Program-made: the position numbers and the translations under genes
In this document: in pieces, positions 2,848 to 62,881 of the stretch
How the letters are laid out: every line of letters starts with the position of its first letter
How positions within the stretch are numbered: position 1 is the first letter of the stretch
Notes under the pieces: generated by a model
The model's input: only the letters and a program-made list of their open reading frames with translations
Database searches by the model: none
Told to the model about the DNA's origin: nothing
Origin: an uncultured Hormoscilla sp.
GTDB lineage: Bacteria > Cyanobacteriota > Cyanobacteriia > Cyanobacteriales > Desertifilaceae
Assembly (NCBI GenBank): GCA_963921275.4
Contig: OZ001293.3
Location: 832,001 to 896,000 of the forward strand
Length of the DNA stretch: 64,000 nt
Direction of reading: 5' to 3'

Positions 2848-4683
2848 GTGCGATTCGTTCTAGCCTAACGTAGTCAAACACGGAACGCTAGTCTAGGAAA
2901 CTAGAAACTCTGGTACTCATTATTGTTAAATTCCCCTCCCTCAAGTGCGGGGGTGACACCGGTCCTCAATGCGGCGGAGCCACATCGCCGTGGTGTTAAG
3001 CGAGGACTCAAATGTAGGATAGCTGGTAGCCTAAGCCGGCAACTCCGCTAGGAAAGATGTATATGGCCAGAACAAGCAAACTCATGTAAGCCTCGTAACC
3101 ATCAACCAGCGAAATAAGGCTTTAAGCGCTGGCCCAAAAGGGGAAGTAGTTAGGGCGTGTCATCAGTTAAGCCAAACAACAGTAGCAGCCAGGTAGATAG
3201 CACCCAAGAAATTCTGAGCCCTCTTATCGTAACGGGTGGCAATGGCTCGATATTGCTTGAGTTTGGCAAAAAAATTCTCAATCAAATGACGTGCTTTGTA
3301 TAGATATTTGTCATAACGGCGTTGTTCTTTTCGATTGGATTTAGGCGGAATCACAGGTTCGCATTGCTGGGCTTCAAGACGTTTCAAAACCCGTTCGTCA
3401 GCATCAGAAGCTTTGTCTGCGAGTAACGCATCAGCCTTAATATTATCAAGTAACACATCAGCCCCTTCCAAATCGTGAGCTTGACCGGCTGTTAAATGAA
3501 AACCCGTTGGGTTCCCCAATGCGTCACAGGTCGCGTGAATTTTGGTACTCAAACCCCCTTTACGGCGTCCGATGGCTTGGTCGCAATCTTTTTTTTGAGC
3601 ACCTGCACTATGTTGATGAGCCCTTTATATCGTGGCATCAATCATCGCATATTCGTTATCGGCATCGGACGCAAGTACCTTGAATACTCTTTCCCATACC
3701 CCGGATTTTGACCACCTACTATGGCGCGTATGAATTACCCTCAAGTCCCCAAATCGCTCGGGTAAGTCCCGCCAAGGTATCCCAGCTCTATATCGATACA
3801 AGACAGCATAGACAAATAAGCGGTTATCCTTAGCTGTCCCCCCCACATAACCCTCCCGACCTGGCAATAGGTCCCTGATTCTCTCCCACTGGTCATCTCT
3901 TAAAGCATAGCGACGCATTTCTCAAATTCTCCTGCTCTAACCTTTACCCTCTTAGATCACACCAATATATCCTGGTTGTCAACTCAATCATCTTGTTATA
4001 TATTTTTGGTGGGGACCCATATCGTTAATCTAACTGATGACACGCCCTAGTATTGGCTCTTTGATTTTGGGCCAATATCGTACTCAAAGAACTGCCGGGG
4101 TAAAGTGAGGGCCTAAAGACATCGTGAAATGATACCGGGGAACGAAGTAACCCTACGTGTGCTGTCCGTCAGGACCAGTCAGATGTGCGTCCGCGTAGCG
4201 TGCGCGCAGCGCATAGCGCACGCCACGTATGGGAGAGATGGCCCGAGAAGCTAATGCCTGGGCGACGTCTGGAGCATGCCGCGTCCTTCAGGACAAGAGC
4301 ATGCTCCAGACGTCGAAGGTGTCTGGAGCATGCCGTATCCCTTGCGGGAGCGCCAGCCGTGTCCTTCAGGACAAGAGCATGCGGAAGACGCCGAGTAATG
4401 CCCACGGATACGCAGACGCGGGTCGGTGATATTAGGAAACTACTGATGCAAGTAGCCTTAAGACGTCATAAGCCCGTCCATATTGTGGATGAGGAATGAA
4501 TATCAAGGGGCAAACGTGTAAGTAGCAAGGGACAACGGGAGTAATCCTTAGTAATTCTACCCATGATTTGGGCCTGATACCCAGTAGCCGTGTGCGGTGA
4601 AAGTCGCATGCACGGTTCCGTTCGCGCAGCGTGGCGCAGCCATACGGGAGGGTTGAGAAGTGATTCTCAGCTCGACCCCTAAT
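2848..4683 (+). mobile_element. ORF-less group IIB intron A, carrying an IS5 in domain I and small repeats in DII, DIII and the DV-DVI linker
   Basis: GTGCGATTCGTTC 5' end. DV is TAGCCGTGTGCGGTGAAAGTCGCATGCACGGTTC. The 3' end is CTCGACCCCTAAT. EBS2 ACCATCA pairs perfectly with exon TGATGGT. Confidence 0.92.
3153..4047 (-). mobile_element. IS5-family (IS427-like) element; transposase 3918-3163 with an internal TAA
   Basis: TIR GGGCGTGTCATCA with a TA(G) duplication. Transposase motifs WRDLPERFG and IENFFAKLKQYRAIATRYDK. Near-identical copy at 13668. Confidence 0.93.
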
Positions 4684-4970
4684 CAGACGAGCGAGAAAAT
4701 GAACCTACAATTCCCTGGAAAGAAGTGAAACGATCTCTAGAATCGAAGAGGAAGTTAAGTGTCTGATTATCCGATCATTTTTACGCGGTCTGCTCAAAAA
4801 GAACTGAATTCACTACCAATTGAAATCAGTAGTAGACTCAGTTCCAAGATTGATGCTTTAGTCAATGAACCCCGTCCTGTTGGCTGTCTGAAGTTAAAGG
4901 GTAGACAAAACCAATGGCGAATTCGGGTTGGCGATTATCGAATAATCTACAGCATTGATGATGATACTTT

Positions 4971-7390
4971 ATTAAACTAAGCCAGTACGTCACCGTACCG
5001 ACTCGTCTTCAAAACCGGACGTGAGACTTTCACCTCATCCGGCTCCTCAGTTTCGTCATCCTTGTCATGGATACGGCCTTTGCTGCCATCCCTGGCAGAT
5101 TTATAATCATGGCAGTAGTCGTGCAGCAACTGTAGGTTGGAGTACCAGTCCTTACCTCCCAGTGAGGTTGGCAGGATGTGGTCCACTTCCCATTTGTCGC
5201 CGTCCTTAAACGTTAGTCCGCAATGCTGGCACTTGCCATCCTGCCTCTTGAGCAGGTTAATCACTCTCATGCTTACGTCCGGGCTCTTTCGTAATCTCTG
5301 GCTCCAGTAGACTAGGTTACCGTCAAGCGGGCTAGCTGTTCCCTTTACCTTTGTGTGTCTGATTATTTCAGTTTCAGAGTGCCGGATTAGCTTTATTTCT
5401 CCTTTCTTGGATTTACCGATGAACCTCCACCGGTCCTTACCGGTCATGGCCCAATAATTTTTGGCAATCCATTCGCCCGATTTATTGGGATGCCTTCTCT
5501 TTGCCCATTGCCACAGCAGCTCCCATAGGTAGCTATCCATGTCGCTGTAAGTTTCCTTACTTACCACCGTCTTGAAGTAGTTGCTCCATCCCCTTATCAT
5601 TGGGTTTAGTTTGACTATCAAGGCTGTCTGTGGTGCCGATTTATGGCGGCGAACTATCTGTGATAGTTGCTCTTTATGATTCCTAATGGATTTATCGCTA
5701 GGCTTGATTAGGGTCTTGAATCCTAGGGGGGTTCCGTTGCTGAGTTTGCCGCTTCTGTGTTTCCCTACTTTGTATTGTCGGATATTGAACCCTAGGAAGT
5801 CAAATCCGGGGTTTTCTCCTTCCAGTGTGTGGGATATCCTGGTTTTCTCGGCTTTTAGCTCTAGTCCTATTCCCTTCAACCACTCCTCAATCACTCCTTG
5901 TGCTCGCTCAATCATTGACCGGTCATCGTGCATTACCACAAAATCATCGGCGTACCTGACTATCGTTAGTTTCTTTTCCTCTCTCTTTGTGCGGGCAAGA
6001 CTCATCACTACCTTTTCCAACCCATGTAGGGCTATATTGGCTAGCAATGGTGATATTACTCCGCCTTGAGGAGTTCCGGCTTCTGTGTCCTGCCATATTC
6101 CCTGGTCCATCACCCCGGCTTTTAGCCATGCCCGTATCTATCTACGGATTGGTGATGTTGTATTCAATTTCTCTAGGAGCGCTGAGTGGTCAATTTTGTC
6201 GAAACATTTCGCAATATCCGCATCTAACACCCATTTTGGTTTCTTGTTGGTGCTGGTGAATATCGTTTCGATCGCATCGTGGCATCCCCTTCCTGGTCTG
6301 AATCCGTAGGAATTGGCTTCCATGTACGCTTCCCATTCGGGCTCAAGCGACTGTTTGACCAATCCCTGAAGTGCGCGGTCGTGCATCGTCGGTCTTCCTA
6401 GTGGCCGCTTTTCGTCCCTTCCTGGCTTAGGTATCCATACACGCAGTGTAGGTTTCGCCTTTGCCTTCCTGGATACTCTGAGCTGACTTACCAGTTCCAG
6501 TCGCTGCTCCATAGTCAGTGCTTTCACACCATCCACACCAGCCGCATTCTTTCCTTGGTTTTGTTGTGTTACCTGTCTCACCGCTATCATCTTCGTGGAC
6601 CATGACCTATTTAGTAACCCTTGGAGCTTGCGAACTTTCCGCTTGTTGCCTTCCTGTGCCGCTCTGTAAATTCGCTTTTGTAGCTTGAAGACATGGCTGG
6701 CGCCACGCTAGCGCGATCGGCGCTCCAGCTCCTGCCAGGGCACCTCCTTCCATTCATACTCTTGCTTTTCGGCTAAGTTCCGTGACATATTAACTACTAC
6801 TCACAACTTCACAATTGACAAAACCGTGAGGGCGTCAGCTTATCCCATCCATTACAGATAGGCGTTTGCTTCTCCACTCAATCTTTCCCAGCTATGACCT
6901 GCCAAATGAGAGCAGATGTTGCGTCTTTGGTGACTACTCCATCTATCGACCGGTGATGGAGAGTGCCTAGCTGGGTTACTTCGTTCCTACAGATGATTAA
7001 TCGTAGTTTTAGATGGATTCTATATGCCGGGTTTGTTGTCAGTGCTTATTAGTCGGATTACAACCGCTAATGACCATTATCCTTTCCCTTTTGGGCCAGT
7101 GTCTCAGCCTTATTACACTGGTTGATGTTGACGACACTTATGAACCTTTGCTTGCGCTCATCATGACTACTTGCTCGACGATGACCGGTTTAGGCTACCA
7201 GTTAGAGCGCCTTTCCTTCCCGCTTTACGGATTGATGCCATCGCTACCGTCGGGAGGATGCTGTCACGAGAGCACATGGAGGGGTGGGCTTTCACCACCA
7301 TCATCTGTAAGTTGTCAGGGCTATTGAAACCCTGCTAGCGGTCCCCTTTCTTGACACGTGTCAAGTCATTTTACCCTAAACGAATCGCAC
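4971..7390 (-). mobile_element. Group IIB (CL-like) intron B with an RT-maturase-HNH ORF
   Basis: GTGCGATTCGTTT start on the minus strand. DV is GAGCCGGATGAGGTGAAAGTCTCACGTCCGGTT. Canonical end ...TTAGTTTAAT. EBS1 TGTAAT pairs with exon ATTATA. Confidence 0.95.
4977..6788 (-). pseudogene. ltrA: Intron-encoded reverse transcriptase/maturase/HNH endonuclease with two in-frame stops
   Basis: GTPQGG, YADD, GFDFLG and HNH (EVDHILP...NLQLLH..CH) motifs. One TAG at 6138-6140; a second at 6708-6710 lies inside a 24-nt inserted repeat. Confidence 0.9.
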
Positions 7391-61913: not shown

Positions 61914-62010
61914 TGAAGCTGTTGCTTGACGAGTGCCTACATAAAAATTTAAACCGAGAGTTAGCGGAGCCTACCGTTATCACTGTACCAAAGCCAACCT
62001 ACAGGAGCCT
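61914..62010 (+). pseudogene. DUF5615/PIN-like 5' remnant
   Basis: MKLLLDECL start, truncated at intron H. Confidence 0.5.
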
Positions 62011-62881
62011 GTGCGATTCGTTCTAGCCTAACGTGGTCAAACACGGAACGCTAGCCCGGTTTCATTAGCCGGGAACTCTGACCGCATGGGGGTTAAATTC
62101 CCCTCCCCCCAGGTACGGGGGTGACACCGGTCCTCGGTGCTACGAAGCGACATCATCGTGGTGCTAAGCGAGGACTCAAATGTAGGATAACTGGCAGCCT
62201 AAGCCGGTGACGCCGCTAAAAAAGATATCCAAGGTTAGAGCAGGCAAACATGTGCAAGCCTCGTTATAAGGAACCAGCGAAATAAGGCTATATGCGCTGG
62301 CCTAAAAAGGAAATGGTAGCTAGTATTAGTTTTAGACTCTGGCTAATATAGTACTCAAATAGCTCCCGGGGTATAGTGTGGACCTAAAGGTATCGCGAAA
62401 TGTTGTTAGGGAACGAAGTAACCTCTCGTGTGCTGTCCATCAGGACAAGTTAGATGTTAAGCGCAAGCCACGGGGGGAGGGATGGCCCAAGAAGCGAATG
62501 CCCGGGGTAATTCCTGGGATAACATCTACAGTAATGTAGATGATGCTGGGTAGCCAGCGCTGACGTGGGTCGGTGATACTAGGAAGCTGCTGGAATGAGT
62601 AATCCTAAAAAGCCACGGAACTAATCCGAAACGCAAGTGGAGGATAAGGTATGGATAACTGGTAAAACTGACTTGAAAATGGTGATACTAACGGTTATCA
62701 GAACAACCACTCGCTAAACCAGGAAAGGGAAGAAAAGACAGGCGGCAAGGGCTAACGGAAGTAATTCCTATTAAGTCTACCTATGAAAAGGGCCTAGTAC
62801 CCAGTAGCCGGATGCGGTGAAAATCGCAAGTCCGGTTCCTCAAGGGAGGGTCGGGAAGCGATTCCCGGCTCGACCCCATCC
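62011..62881 (+). mobile_element. ORF-less group IIB intron H
   Basis: GTGCGATTCGTTCT start, DV present, end CTCGACCCCATCC. EBS1 AGACTC pairs with GAGCCT at 5 of 6 positions. Confidence 0.92.

What the first reader, a model, noticed from the sequence alone, without database searches (positions are those of the whole stretch)
2848..62881. Every intron copy has its own EBS, matched to its own insertion site
Seen, EBS1/IBS1 pairs: A TGATTT/TAATTG, C TGCCTC/GAGGTA, D CTGTAC/GTACAG, E TGCTCT/AGAGTA, F TGTCTT/GGGACA, G TGCACT/CGTGTA, H AGACTC/GAGCCT. Each makes 5-6 of 6 pairs including G-U. EBS2 also tracks the exon in A, D and E, while flanking scaffold motifs stay conserved. Established: EBS diversification with ORF-less spread is known from Thermosynechococcus. 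Inference: seven different guides in seven copies suggests a large natural library of retargeted introns, possibly with a mechanism that varies the EBS loops.
Basis: partly seen in the sequence, partly recalled or inferred. Interest (0 to 1): 0.72.

Follow-up and report, generated by a model that had tools for sequence, protein, structure and literature searches.

The report
Swarm of retargeted group II introns
The window samples a cyanobacterial chromosome carrying over 400 copies of one self-splicing mobile intron family with about a hundred different target-guide sequences, which ordinary mutation and selection can explain.

Summary
In the window, only 1 of 5040 permutations (the identity itself) reaches the own-site pairing. 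Genome-wide the z-scores are 17.5 for EBS1 and 12.1 for EBS2.

The elements are group IIB introns like those of Thermosynechococcus, mostly ORF-less. The chromosome has 457 copies with an intact 5' end and 97 RT/maturase loci. Covariation recovers EBS1, EBS2, EBS2a and EBS3.

"Every copy has its own EBS" holds only inside the window. 407 copies carry 99 guide sets. Two near-identical bursts of 145 and 75 copies each use a single guide set at many imperfect sites.

The guide columns are the fastest-evolving in domain I: 30-48 parsimony steps against a mean of 7.4. Within the bursts, though, they mutate at the background rate, 3 of 2860 against 121 of 88000. So the excess reflects which variants succeed, not a mutator aimed at the loops.

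This is the mechanism already known from T. elongatus, at roughly 15 times the scale.

The parts
2848..4673 (+). Intron A, ORF-less. An insertion sequence splits its domain I just upstream of the EBS1 hairpin. D6 carries a short palindromic insert.
   Evidence: 5' GTGCG at 2848 and 3' ...CCCCTAAT at 4673. Alignment with the other copies. D5 folds canonically at -13.5 kcal/mol. No RF00029 match at the gathering score.
3153..4047 (-). Insertion sequence inside intron A. It has inverted ends GGGCGTGTCATCAGTTA / TAACTGATGACACGCCC flanked by TA. The boundaries were read by eye.
   Evidence: 100% identical repeats 3151-3450 = 13666-13965 and 3589-3888 = 14105-14404. The second copy encodes a DDE transposase fragment. 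Sequence.
4969..7390 (-). Intron B, ORF-bearing. Its RT/maturase/HNH gene is broken into two frames (6590-6138 and 6113-4977). The 3' end is approximate.
   Evidence: The 5' module hit starts at 7390. RF00029 at 4971-5047 and RF04357 at 5008-5048. Pfam RVT_N, RVT_1, GIIM and HNH. The closest solved protein is the T. elongatus intron RT 6ME0, E 2e-63.
9823..10749 (-). Intron C, 927 nt, sense-oriented in a response-regulator/PP2C gene. EBS2 differs by 1 nt from 16 relatives, which breaks a pair. Its domain V is non-canonical.
   Evidence: A spliced open frame of 393 codons spans the site. Pfam of the upstream exon. The D5 fold is no better than shuffles, -6.9 kcal/mol, z -0.75.
16632..17545 (+). 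Intron D, 914 nt, in the class II ribonucleotide reductase gene.
   Evidence: The boundaries rest on three results. The exon frames only join as ...LWIGGT-E-WIKQPENF. Unoccupied sites GGATAGGAGGTAC[A/G]G|AGTGGATT occur in 4 of 4 congeners. RF00029 matches at 17467-17544.
16884..16890 (+). EBS2a (C16884), invariant A (16885) and EBS2 (CCTAT, 16886-16890) of intron D. They pair with exon bases 16618-16623 (GATAGG).
   Evidence: Covariation map, score 6/6, sequence.
16952..16957 (+). EBS1 of intron D (CTGTAC), in the terminal loop of an 8-bp hairpin. It pairs with exon bases 16626-16631 (GTACAG).
   Evidence: Hairpin covariation.
16992..16992 (+). EBS3 of intron D (T). It pairs with the first base of the 3' exon (A17546). 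The position is inferred from alignment column 363.
   Evidence: Mutual information with exon +1 is 0.77 bits against 0.24 for the next column. Watson-Crick own 0.78 against shuffled 0.43, 0 of 5000.
29988..30932 (+). Intron E, 945 nt, intergenic, with a unique guide set.
38307..38874 (-). Intron F, 568 nt. Most of D2-D4 is deleted. It has a unique guide set and a non-canonical domain V.
   Evidence: D5 fold -7.2 kcal/mol, z -0.42. No RF00029 match at the gathering score.
46026..46860 (-). Intron G, 835 nt, sense-oriented in a gene with an eCIS core domain. It belongs to a burst of about 75 near-identical copies.
62011..62881 (+). Intron H, 871 nt, intergenic. It belongs to a burst of about 145 near-identical copies. 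Its own site departs from the family consensus site at 3 of 12 guide positions.

Best explanation
The eight elements are copies of one family of group IIB introns, a self-splicing ribozyme that is also a retroelement. The family resembles the TeI3/TeI4 introns of Thermosynechococcus elongatus and has overrun this cyanobacterial chromosome.

Most copies are ORF-less derivatives of about 570-950 nt. I infer that they are spliced and mobilised in trans by RT/maturase/HNH proteins encoded by ORF-bearing relatives.

Target choice is by base pairing of four intron elements. EBS1 is 6 nt in a hairpin loop and pairs with exon -1..-6. EBS2 is 5 nt and pairs with -9..-13. EBS2a is 1 nt, set two bases upstream of EBS2, and pairs with -14. 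EBS3 is 1 nt and pairs with +1. There is also a purine preference at -15 that does not track the intron, which I infer is read by the protein.

The guide diversity arises from ordinary mutation at the background rate followed by differential success. A variant guide opens unoccupied sites and founds a new lineage, so surviving lineages differ mainly at their guides. Two lineages are currently spreading as low-specificity retrotransposons, inserting at sites that miss the ideal match by about 2-3 of 12 positions.

What is shown: the pairing statistics, the covariation map, the copy numbers, the empty sites, and the background mutation rate at guides within the bursts. What is inferred: trans-mobilisation, splicing in vivo, and selection as the cause of the excess.
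For: Family identity. All copies start GTGCG. RF00029 matches 5 of the 8 window copies. Six of 8 have a canonical domain V hairpin. Copy B encodes RVT_N/RVT_1/GIIM/HNH, and its best solved relative is the T. elongatus intron RT (6ME0, E 2e-63).

Scale. There are 527 5'-module hits and 411 3'-module hits, all on the chromosome. 457 copies have an intact 5' end. 369 paired elements cover 357 kb, or 5.2% of the chromosome. There are 97 RT loci, 20 of them with an open frame of at least 520 aa.

Pairing. With one copy per guide set (n = 101), own EBS1 averages 5.38 against 4.10 shuffled (z 17.5), and own EBS2 averages 4.88 against 4.15 (z 12.1). 0 of 2000 shuffles reach either value. Mutual information pairs exon -1..-6 with columns 323-328, -9..-13 with 256-260, -14 with 254, and +1 with 363. 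EBS2a is Watson-Crick paired in 0.80 of own sites against 0.34 shuffled, and EBS3 in 0.78 against 0.43, each 0 of 5000.

Mobility. 95 copies have an unoccupied paralogous site in the same genome, all with the same boundary offset. The RNR site is unoccupied in 4 of 4 congeners.

Rate. The 13 guide columns rank 1-12 and 14 of 413 by Fitch steps, 30-48 against a mean of 7.4 and a maximum of 33. In full-length close pairs, guide windows differ at 8/15, 8/15 and 10/15 positions while D2-D6 differs by 3.2%, 5.9% and 8.0%.

No mutator. In the bursts the guides carry 3 differences in 2860 site-copies and the rest carry 121 in 88000, p = 1.0. The consensus sites of the H, G and C families are the complements of their guides. 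Small-step retargeting is seen directly: sub-lineages at least 98% identical outside the guides differ by 2 EBS1 bases, and those bases improve pairing at their own sites.

Literature. Mohr 2010 gives the same model for 28 copies in six guide families (PMC2882425, passages). Monachello 2021 established EBS2a-IBS2a at -14 (PMC8643678, passages).
Against: Nearest-neighbour lineages are bimodal. Their guides are either identical or almost randomised (for example 5/6 and 4/6 different) at only 3-5% background divergence, with unchanged stems and few intermediates. Stepwise change should leave intermediates unless copies turn over fast.

No RNA data exist for this organism, so splicing and trans-mobilisation are untested.

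69 of 387 scored copies do not have the full 11-of-11 canonical D5 pairing. 47 of them share one 8-of-11 variant, including whole multi-site families, which is awkward for a model that needs each copy's own ribozyme for mobility.

The EBS1 columns are misaligned in hairpins of other lengths (27 of 67 single-site copies), which may inflate their step counts. EBS2, EBS2a and EBS3 have no such problem and show the same excess.

The alifold consensus used to split paired from unpaired columns was poor.
Confidence: 0.8

Rival explanations
1. A dedicated process rewrites or hypermutates the EBS loops, so that retargeting is generated actively rather than filtered from random mutation.
For: The guide columns are the 13 most variable of domain I apart from one other column. 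Close relatives (3-8% divergence over the whole intron) have near-randomised guides with intact stems. Intermediates are scarce.
Against: 220 recent retromobility products show guide changes at the background rate, 3/2860 against 121/88000. None has more than one guide change. The three singleton changes tabulated inside large families (two in H, one in the C family) worsen pairing with their own site, as random decay would. 2-nt steps do exist. No machinery for such a process was seen. The published model explains the pattern without one.
Confidence: 0.06
2. Insert first, adapt later is the main route. Introns land at imperfect sites, as the bursts do. The guide then changes by compensatory mutation to fit the local exon because the host needs efficient splicing. 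Repeated cycles randomise the guide.
For: Burst copies sit at sites with about 2.5 mismatches of 12 (H mean 5.18+4.33, G 5.24+4.14). Older lineages score somewhat higher out of 13: 10.7-11.35 against 10.3-10.8. Insertions in long open frames are biased to the sense strand, 76 against 42, p = 0.002.
Against: Pairing is no better for sense-in-gene copies than for the rest (p = 0.18-0.40). None of the 220 burst copies has a compensating guide change. The method cannot order the events.
Confidence: 0.2
3. Recombination or gene conversion between copies reshuffles the EBS2 and EBS1 modules and is the main source of new guide combinations.
For: There is one clean chimera. Lineage 71 has no differences from lineage 69 in the windows spanning about columns 120-299, and is identical to lineage 83 from about column 300 to the end. 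10 pairs of lineages share an EBS2 6-mer, against 2.5 expected (sd 1.6). Several close D1 pairs have D2-D6 24-41% different, so they are mosaics.
Against: Only 2 of 106 lineages pass the chimera screen. The clean chimera sits at a site matching the EBS1 it lost, so it is a post-insertion conversion that broke the match. Loops differ under identical stems, which transfer from another lineage would rarely produce.
Confidence: 0.05

Closest known systems
Thermosynechococcus elongatus TeI3/TeI4 group IIB1 intron family (Mohr, Ghanem and Lambowitz 2010, PMC2882425; passages read)
   Same: ORF-less derivatives spread alongside a few ORF-bearing copies. Families are defined by different EBS1/2/3 sequences. 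Most copies sit at complementary sites and some at poorer ones. Some insert into other introns (23 of 369 here). The protein reads position -15. The IEP here is most similar to the solved T. elongatus RT.
   Different: The scale differs: 457 copies and 99 guide sets here, against 28 copies and six families there. Here two lineages (145 and 75 copies) spread into degenerate sites with about 2.5 mismatches of 12, which looks like retrotransposition. The paper argues that most T. elongatus insertions were retrohoming after EBS divergence. Whether this host is thermophilic is unknown.
EBS2a-IBS2a pairing of IIB1/IIB2 introns, shown for EcI5 (Monachello et al. 2021, PMC8643678; passages read)
   Same: A single intron base just upstream of EBS2 pairs with exon position -14. 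Here the mutual information is 0.87 and 85% of lineages are paired, and Watson-Crick pairing is 0.80 against 0.34 shuffled.
   Different: Here the signal comes mainly from ORF-less copies. The paper found no statistical support in organellar ORF-less introns, and predicted retention only where trans-mobilisation continues. That prediction fits this genome.
Intron-rich cyanobacteria in the survey of Miura et al. 2022 (PMC8919778; passages read)
   Same: Chloroplast-like group II introns expand strongly in some filamentous cyanobacteria, and copy number varies between close relatives.
   Different: The highest count in that survey of 1,790 representative bacterial genomes was 101, in Arthrospira platensis. 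The methods differ, so the counts are not strictly comparable. Three searches of the paper library found no higher count.
Targetrons, which are engineered retargeting of group II introns by rewriting EBS1/2/3 (PMC3898094; search listing only, otherwise recalled)
   Same: Specificity is reprogrammed purely through the guide loops on an unchanged scaffold.
   Different: Here the library is natural, and it includes EBS2a.

Membership tests
Group II intron (ribozyme) | 5' GUGYG and a domain V/VI at the 3' end | tested here: met
   All eight window copies start GTGCG. RF00029 exceeds the gathering score in 5 of 8 (B, D, E, G, H), while A, C and F do not. Genome-wide, the first look gave 867 candidates and 150 were scored, yielding 151 matches. 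All listed rows but the last two are over the cut-off.
Group II intron (ribozyme) | Canonical domain V hairpin (two helices with a 2-nt bulge) | tested here: inconclusive
   It is met in A, B, D, E, G and H (-13.5 to -17.4 kcal/mol). It is not met in C and F, whose folds are no better than shuffles. Genome-wide, 318 of 387 copies have 11 of 11 core pairs, 47 share one variant with 8 of 11, and 10 have 6 of 11, possibly through misalignment.
Subgroup IIB (IIB1/IIB2 type) | EBS1-IBS1 and EBS2-IBS2 with the 5' exon, and EBS3-IBS3 with the first 3'-exon base through a site away from EBS1 | tested here: met
   Covariation map. Permutations.
Subgroup IIB (IIB1/IIB2 type) | EBS2a-IBS2a pair at exon -14 | tested here: met
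   Column 254 against exon -14 has MI 0.87. Watson-Crick pairing is 0.80 against 0.34 shuffled, 0 of 5000. The definition is from PMC8643678.
Mobile group II intron (retroelement) | Intron-encoded protein with RT, maturase (X) and endonuclease domains | tested here: met
   Copy B has RVT_N, RVT_1, GIIM and HNH, but in two broken frames. There are 97 loci in the genome, 20 with an open frame of at least 520 aa and 15 with at least 588 aa.
Mobile group II intron (retroelement) | Evidence of insertion: occupied and unoccupied versions of the same site with exact boundaries | tested here: met
   95 copies have an unoccupied paralogous site, all at one boundary offset. The RNR site is unoccupied in 4 of 4 congeners.
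Mobile group II intron (retroelement) | Splicing in vivo and mobilisation of ORF-less copies in trans | not testable with these tools
   No RNA run of the organism was found. The contigs of three runs of unrecorded type show the exon-intron junctions only.
Diversity-generating or other targeted mutator acting on the guide loops | Raised mutational input at the variable sites per replication or retrotransposition cycle | tested here: not met
   3 of 2860 guide site-copies differ against 121 of 88000 elsewhere in 220 burst copies, Fisher p = 1.0.

The most novel reading that the evidence does not exclude
Retargeting may be saltatory. An unknown process would replace whole guide loops at once on an otherwise unchanged scaffold. 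That would explain why close relatives have either identical or fully different guides with almost no intermediates. It would operate only occasionally, so the two recent bursts would not show it.

A second bold reading is also not excluded. Lineages with a mispaired domain V may still spread because the hundreds of co-expressed introns supply catalysis in trans.
Probability: 0.07. Interest if true: 0.9.

Novelty: new member of a known kind. Interest (0 to 1): 0.55.

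Why it matters
How group II introns could rise to high copy number in a cell is central to ideas on the origin of spliceosomal introns. Natural bacterial examples are few and small.

This genome and its congeners hold about 15 times more copies and guide families than the T. elongatus model. They also hold two expansions caught in progress, at 99.9% identity.

The roughly 360 distinct natural insertion sites, grouped under about 100 guide sets, amount to a ready-made specificity data set. 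From sequence alone they recover EBS1, EBS2, EBS2a, EBS3 and a protein-read position.

That data set could inform targetron design. It also gives a direct way to measure how guides evolve.

Tried and rejected
1. RNA evidence for splicing. One run search and one laying found no RNA run of the organism. Contigs of three runs of unrecorded type from one study reach 30 nt into intron D from both exons, and none bridges it. The one metatranscriptome run held only small pieces.

2. Replication-strand bias. Strand counts per 0.5 Mb show no switch, and the cumulative GC skew is weak. This says nothing on the priming route.

3. Better pairing for copies that must splice. Sense-in-gene copies were compared with the rest in the H, G and other groups. 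No difference was found (p = 0.30, 0.40, 0.18).

4. Recombination as the source of guide diversity. 2 of 106 lineages pass the screen, and the clear case is a post-insertion conversion.

It was replaced by BLAST.

6. The RNAalifold consensus of the 5' module gave few helices. The paired/unpaired split is therefore rough, and I rely on ranks over all columns instead.

7. Naming the organism. One protein search returned only distant named cyanobacteria at 77-82% identity. Records of the window's own genome are withheld. I did not pursue it.

8. The earlier notes of this scan held nothing for this genome.

9. Copy numbers in congeners are first-look candidate counts (187-219 against 487 here), not curated counts.

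Full report
WHAT IS IN THE WINDOW

Rfam finds group II intron domain V/VI at five places. Repeat finding shows dispersed copies at 70-85% identity. Aligning the copies and mapping them with profile HMMs gives eight introns.

| Copy | Window coordinates | Strand | Note |
|---|---|---|---|
| A | 2848-4673 | + | split by an insertion sequence at about 3153-4047 |
| B | 7390 to about 4969 | - | ORF-bearing |
| C | 10749-9823 | - | |
| D | 16632-17545 | + | |
| E | 29988-30932 | + | |
| F | 38874-38307 | - | |
| G | 46860-46026 | - | |
| H | 62011-62881 | + | |

All start GTGCG. B encodes RVT_N, RVT_1, GIIM and HNH domains in two broken frames. Its C-terminal 378 residues match the solved Thermosynechococcus elongatus intron RT best (6ME0, E 2e-63). 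The other seven have no ORF.

D interrupts a class II ribonucleotide reductase gene. The exon frames join only if the intron ends one base after ...CCCCGAC, which gives ...LWIGGT-E-WIKQPENF. The same site is unoccupied in 4 of 4 genomes of the same genus. C and G also lie in sense orientation in long open frames.

CHECK OF THE OBSERVATION

They total 39 of 42 standard pairs. Of all 5040 permutations of sites among introns, only the identity reaches 39 (mean 25.6). With B the total is 45 of 48, reached by 1 of 40320.

The EBS1 loop sits on an 8-bp stem. That stem is 95% paired in the eight copies, with changes on both sides in 7 of 8 pairs. 0 of 500 shuffles reach this, and slid registers give 17-56% paired.

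THE GENOME-WIDE PICTURE

The window lies in a 6.88-Mb chromosome. A 413-column profile of domain I finds 527 hits. A 105-column profile of domains V-VI finds 411. All are on that chromosome.

- 457 copies have an intact 5' end.
- 369 can be paired into whole elements, mostly 800-1000 nt, covering 357 kb or 5.2% of the chromosome.
- tblastn finds 97 RT loci, 20 with an open frame of at least 520 aa.
- An independent Rfam search scored 150 of 867 first-look candidates, and nearly all passed the family cut-off.
- 23 of 369 elements are nested in another element, and 4 follow another head to tail.

Three of the four other genomes of the genus give 187-219 first-look candidates against 487 here. 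The fourth gives 9, and 16 genomes of other genera give 5-19. These are candidate counts, not copy numbers.

HOW TARGETS ARE READ

I took one lineage per guide set and measured mutual information between exon positions and alignment columns. This pairs exon -1..-6 with columns 323-328, which is EBS1. It pairs -9..-13 with columns 256-260, which is EBS2. Exon -14 pairs with column 254, which lies upstream of EBS2 beyond an invariant A. Exon +1 pairs with column 363.

The odd -14 partner is the EBS2a-IBS2a pair that Monachello et al. 2021 established for IIB1/IIB2 introns (passages). Column 363 is EBS3.

Watson-Crick pairing at EBS2a is 0.80 at own sites against 0.34 shuffled. At EBS3 it is 0.78 against 0.43. 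In each case 0 of 5000 shuffles reach the own value, with n = 64 guide sets.

Position -15 is a purine in 54 of 64 guide sets whatever the intron. It is A in 102 of 146 H sites and 51 of 74 G sites. Mohr 2010 found A-15 selected by the TeI4h protein (passages).

Own-site pairing over 101 guide sets averages 5.38 for EBS1 against 4.10 shuffled (z 17.5). For EBS2 it averages 4.88 against 4.15 (z 12.1). 0 of 2000 shuffles reach either.

95 copies have an unoccupied paralogous site in the same genome, and all agree on the boundaries.

The 407 copies that cover both guide regions carry 99 guide sets. 66 are singletons, but the largest hold 143, 72 and 16 copies.

H belongs to a family of about 145 copies and G to one of about 75. 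Each copy differs from its family consensus by about 0.1% (72 and 49 differences over 58000 and 30000 site-copies). Each family sits at many different sites.

The consensus of those sites is the complement of the family's guides. For H it is AACCTTAnnGAGTCT followed by the intron. For G it is ACTAGAnnAGTGYA followed by the intron. Individual sites miss about 2.5 of 12 positions. H scores 5.18 of 6 for EBS1 and 4.33 of 6 for EBS2 over 115 distinct sites. G scores 5.24 and 4.14 over 58.

The window's H site is simply one of the poorer ones. C's EBS2 differs from its 16 relatives by one base, and that base breaks a pair.

IS THERE A MECHANISM THAT VARIES THE LOOPS?

The guide columns really are exceptional. 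I built a tree of 106 lineages from the other columns. On it the guide columns take 30-48 parsimony steps and rank 1-12 and 14 of 413. The non-guide mean is 7.4 and the maximum is 33.

This is not just relaxed constraint. In full-length pairs with uniform low divergence, the guide windows differ at 8/15, 8/15 and 10/15 positions. In the same pairs D2-D6 differs by 3.2%, 5.9% and 8.0%.

The input of mutations is not raised, however. I defined burst membership by the non-guide columns, so retargeted progeny would still be counted. Among the 220 burst copies, the guides carry 3 differences in 2860 site-copies. The rest carry 121 in 88000 (p = 1.0). No copy has two guide changes.

The three singleton changes tabulated in large families (two in H, one in the C family) all worsen own-site pairing. 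Small steps do occur. Sub-lineages at least 98% identical elsewhere differ by two EBS1 bases that improve pairing at their own sites.

The simplest reading is the one Mohr 2010 gave. Guide mutations are ordinary and rare. They open unoccupied sites, so the lineages that survive are the ones that changed.

Recombination exists but is minor. One clean chimera, 2 of 106 lineages by a strict screen, and several D1/D2-D6 mosaics were found. The clean case is mismatched to its own site.

WHAT REMAINS AWKWARD

Nearest-neighbour lineages have either identical guides or near-random ones at 3-5% background divergence, with few intermediates.

47 of 387 copies share a domain V with three mispairs, and 10 more score 6 of 11. 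These include whole families that sit at 8-16 different sites.

Neither point overturns the main reading. Both keep a small probability open for something new.

COMPARISON AND NOVELTY

The system works like the T. elongatus family and meets the tests for a mobile IIB intron, except that splicing could not be tested. It differs in scale: 457 copies and 99 guide sets against 28 and six. It also differs in showing two ongoing low-specificity expansions.

The largest count in the survey of Miura et al. 2022 was 101 (passages). Three library searches found nothing larger. Subscription journals, and supplements I did not open, may hold more.

VERDICT

The 'library' reading is supported. 'One guide per copy' is wrong beyond the window. 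A dedicated loop-varying mechanism is not needed and is not indicated.

Noticed in passing
window 9866-9901 (-) and 38349-38384 (-); genome-wide: Copies C and F carry a domain V whose lower helix has three mispairs (AGCCGTGTGCGG...GTCGCTCTTCAGGTT). The same variant is in 47 of 387 copies, spread over at least ten guide lineages. These include the 16-site C family and an 8-site family, so it appears to have spread despite looking defective. Trans-complementation or a non-canonical fold are both possible.
   Followed up: partly
all copies; e.g. window 17542-17545, 62878-62881, 4670-4673: The introns do not end in the usual AY. The last bases are GACC, GACT, ATCC or TAAT, with the final base always a pyrimidine. 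This is shown by 95 empty sites and by the RNR frame.
   Followed up: partly
window about 15000-20697 (+): The class II ribonucleotide reductase gene carries both group II intron D and an intein with a LAGLIDADG domain (Pfam Intein_splicing and LAGLIDADG_3 in the downstream exon).
   Followed up: no
window 3153-4047 and 13666-14404: Two 100% identical copies of a DDE-transposase insertion sequence. One of them is inserted in domain I of intron A.
   Followed up: partly
window 4190-4400, 4620-4650, 30440-30560; also 39869-40410 and 45133-45202: Short GC-rich palindromic elements (motifs such as GTCCTTCAGGACAAGAG and GCGCAGCGTGGCGCAGCC) are inserted in D3/D4 and D6 of introns A and E. They also occur outside introns.
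   Followed up: no
genome lineages compared: Several intron pairs are 4-7% apart in domain I but 24-41% apart in D2-D6. Domain I and the rest of the intron therefore have different histories, meaning mosaic introns.
   Followed up: partly
window 48813-50185, 50598-50798, 34015-34144: There is a 370-nt tandem repeat block, and there are two arrays of 7- and 21-nt repeats of the kind common in filamentous cyanobacteria.
   Followed up: no
window 46817-48748 (-): Intron G interrupts, in sense orientation, a 643-aa frame with an eCIS core domain, a contractile injection system family.
   Followed up: no
genome: 42 of 293 distinct insertions lie antisense in open frames of at least 200 codons, where they cannot be spliced out. 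Overall the introns are depleted in long frames compared with random positions: 118 of 293 against 313 of 600.
   Followed up: no
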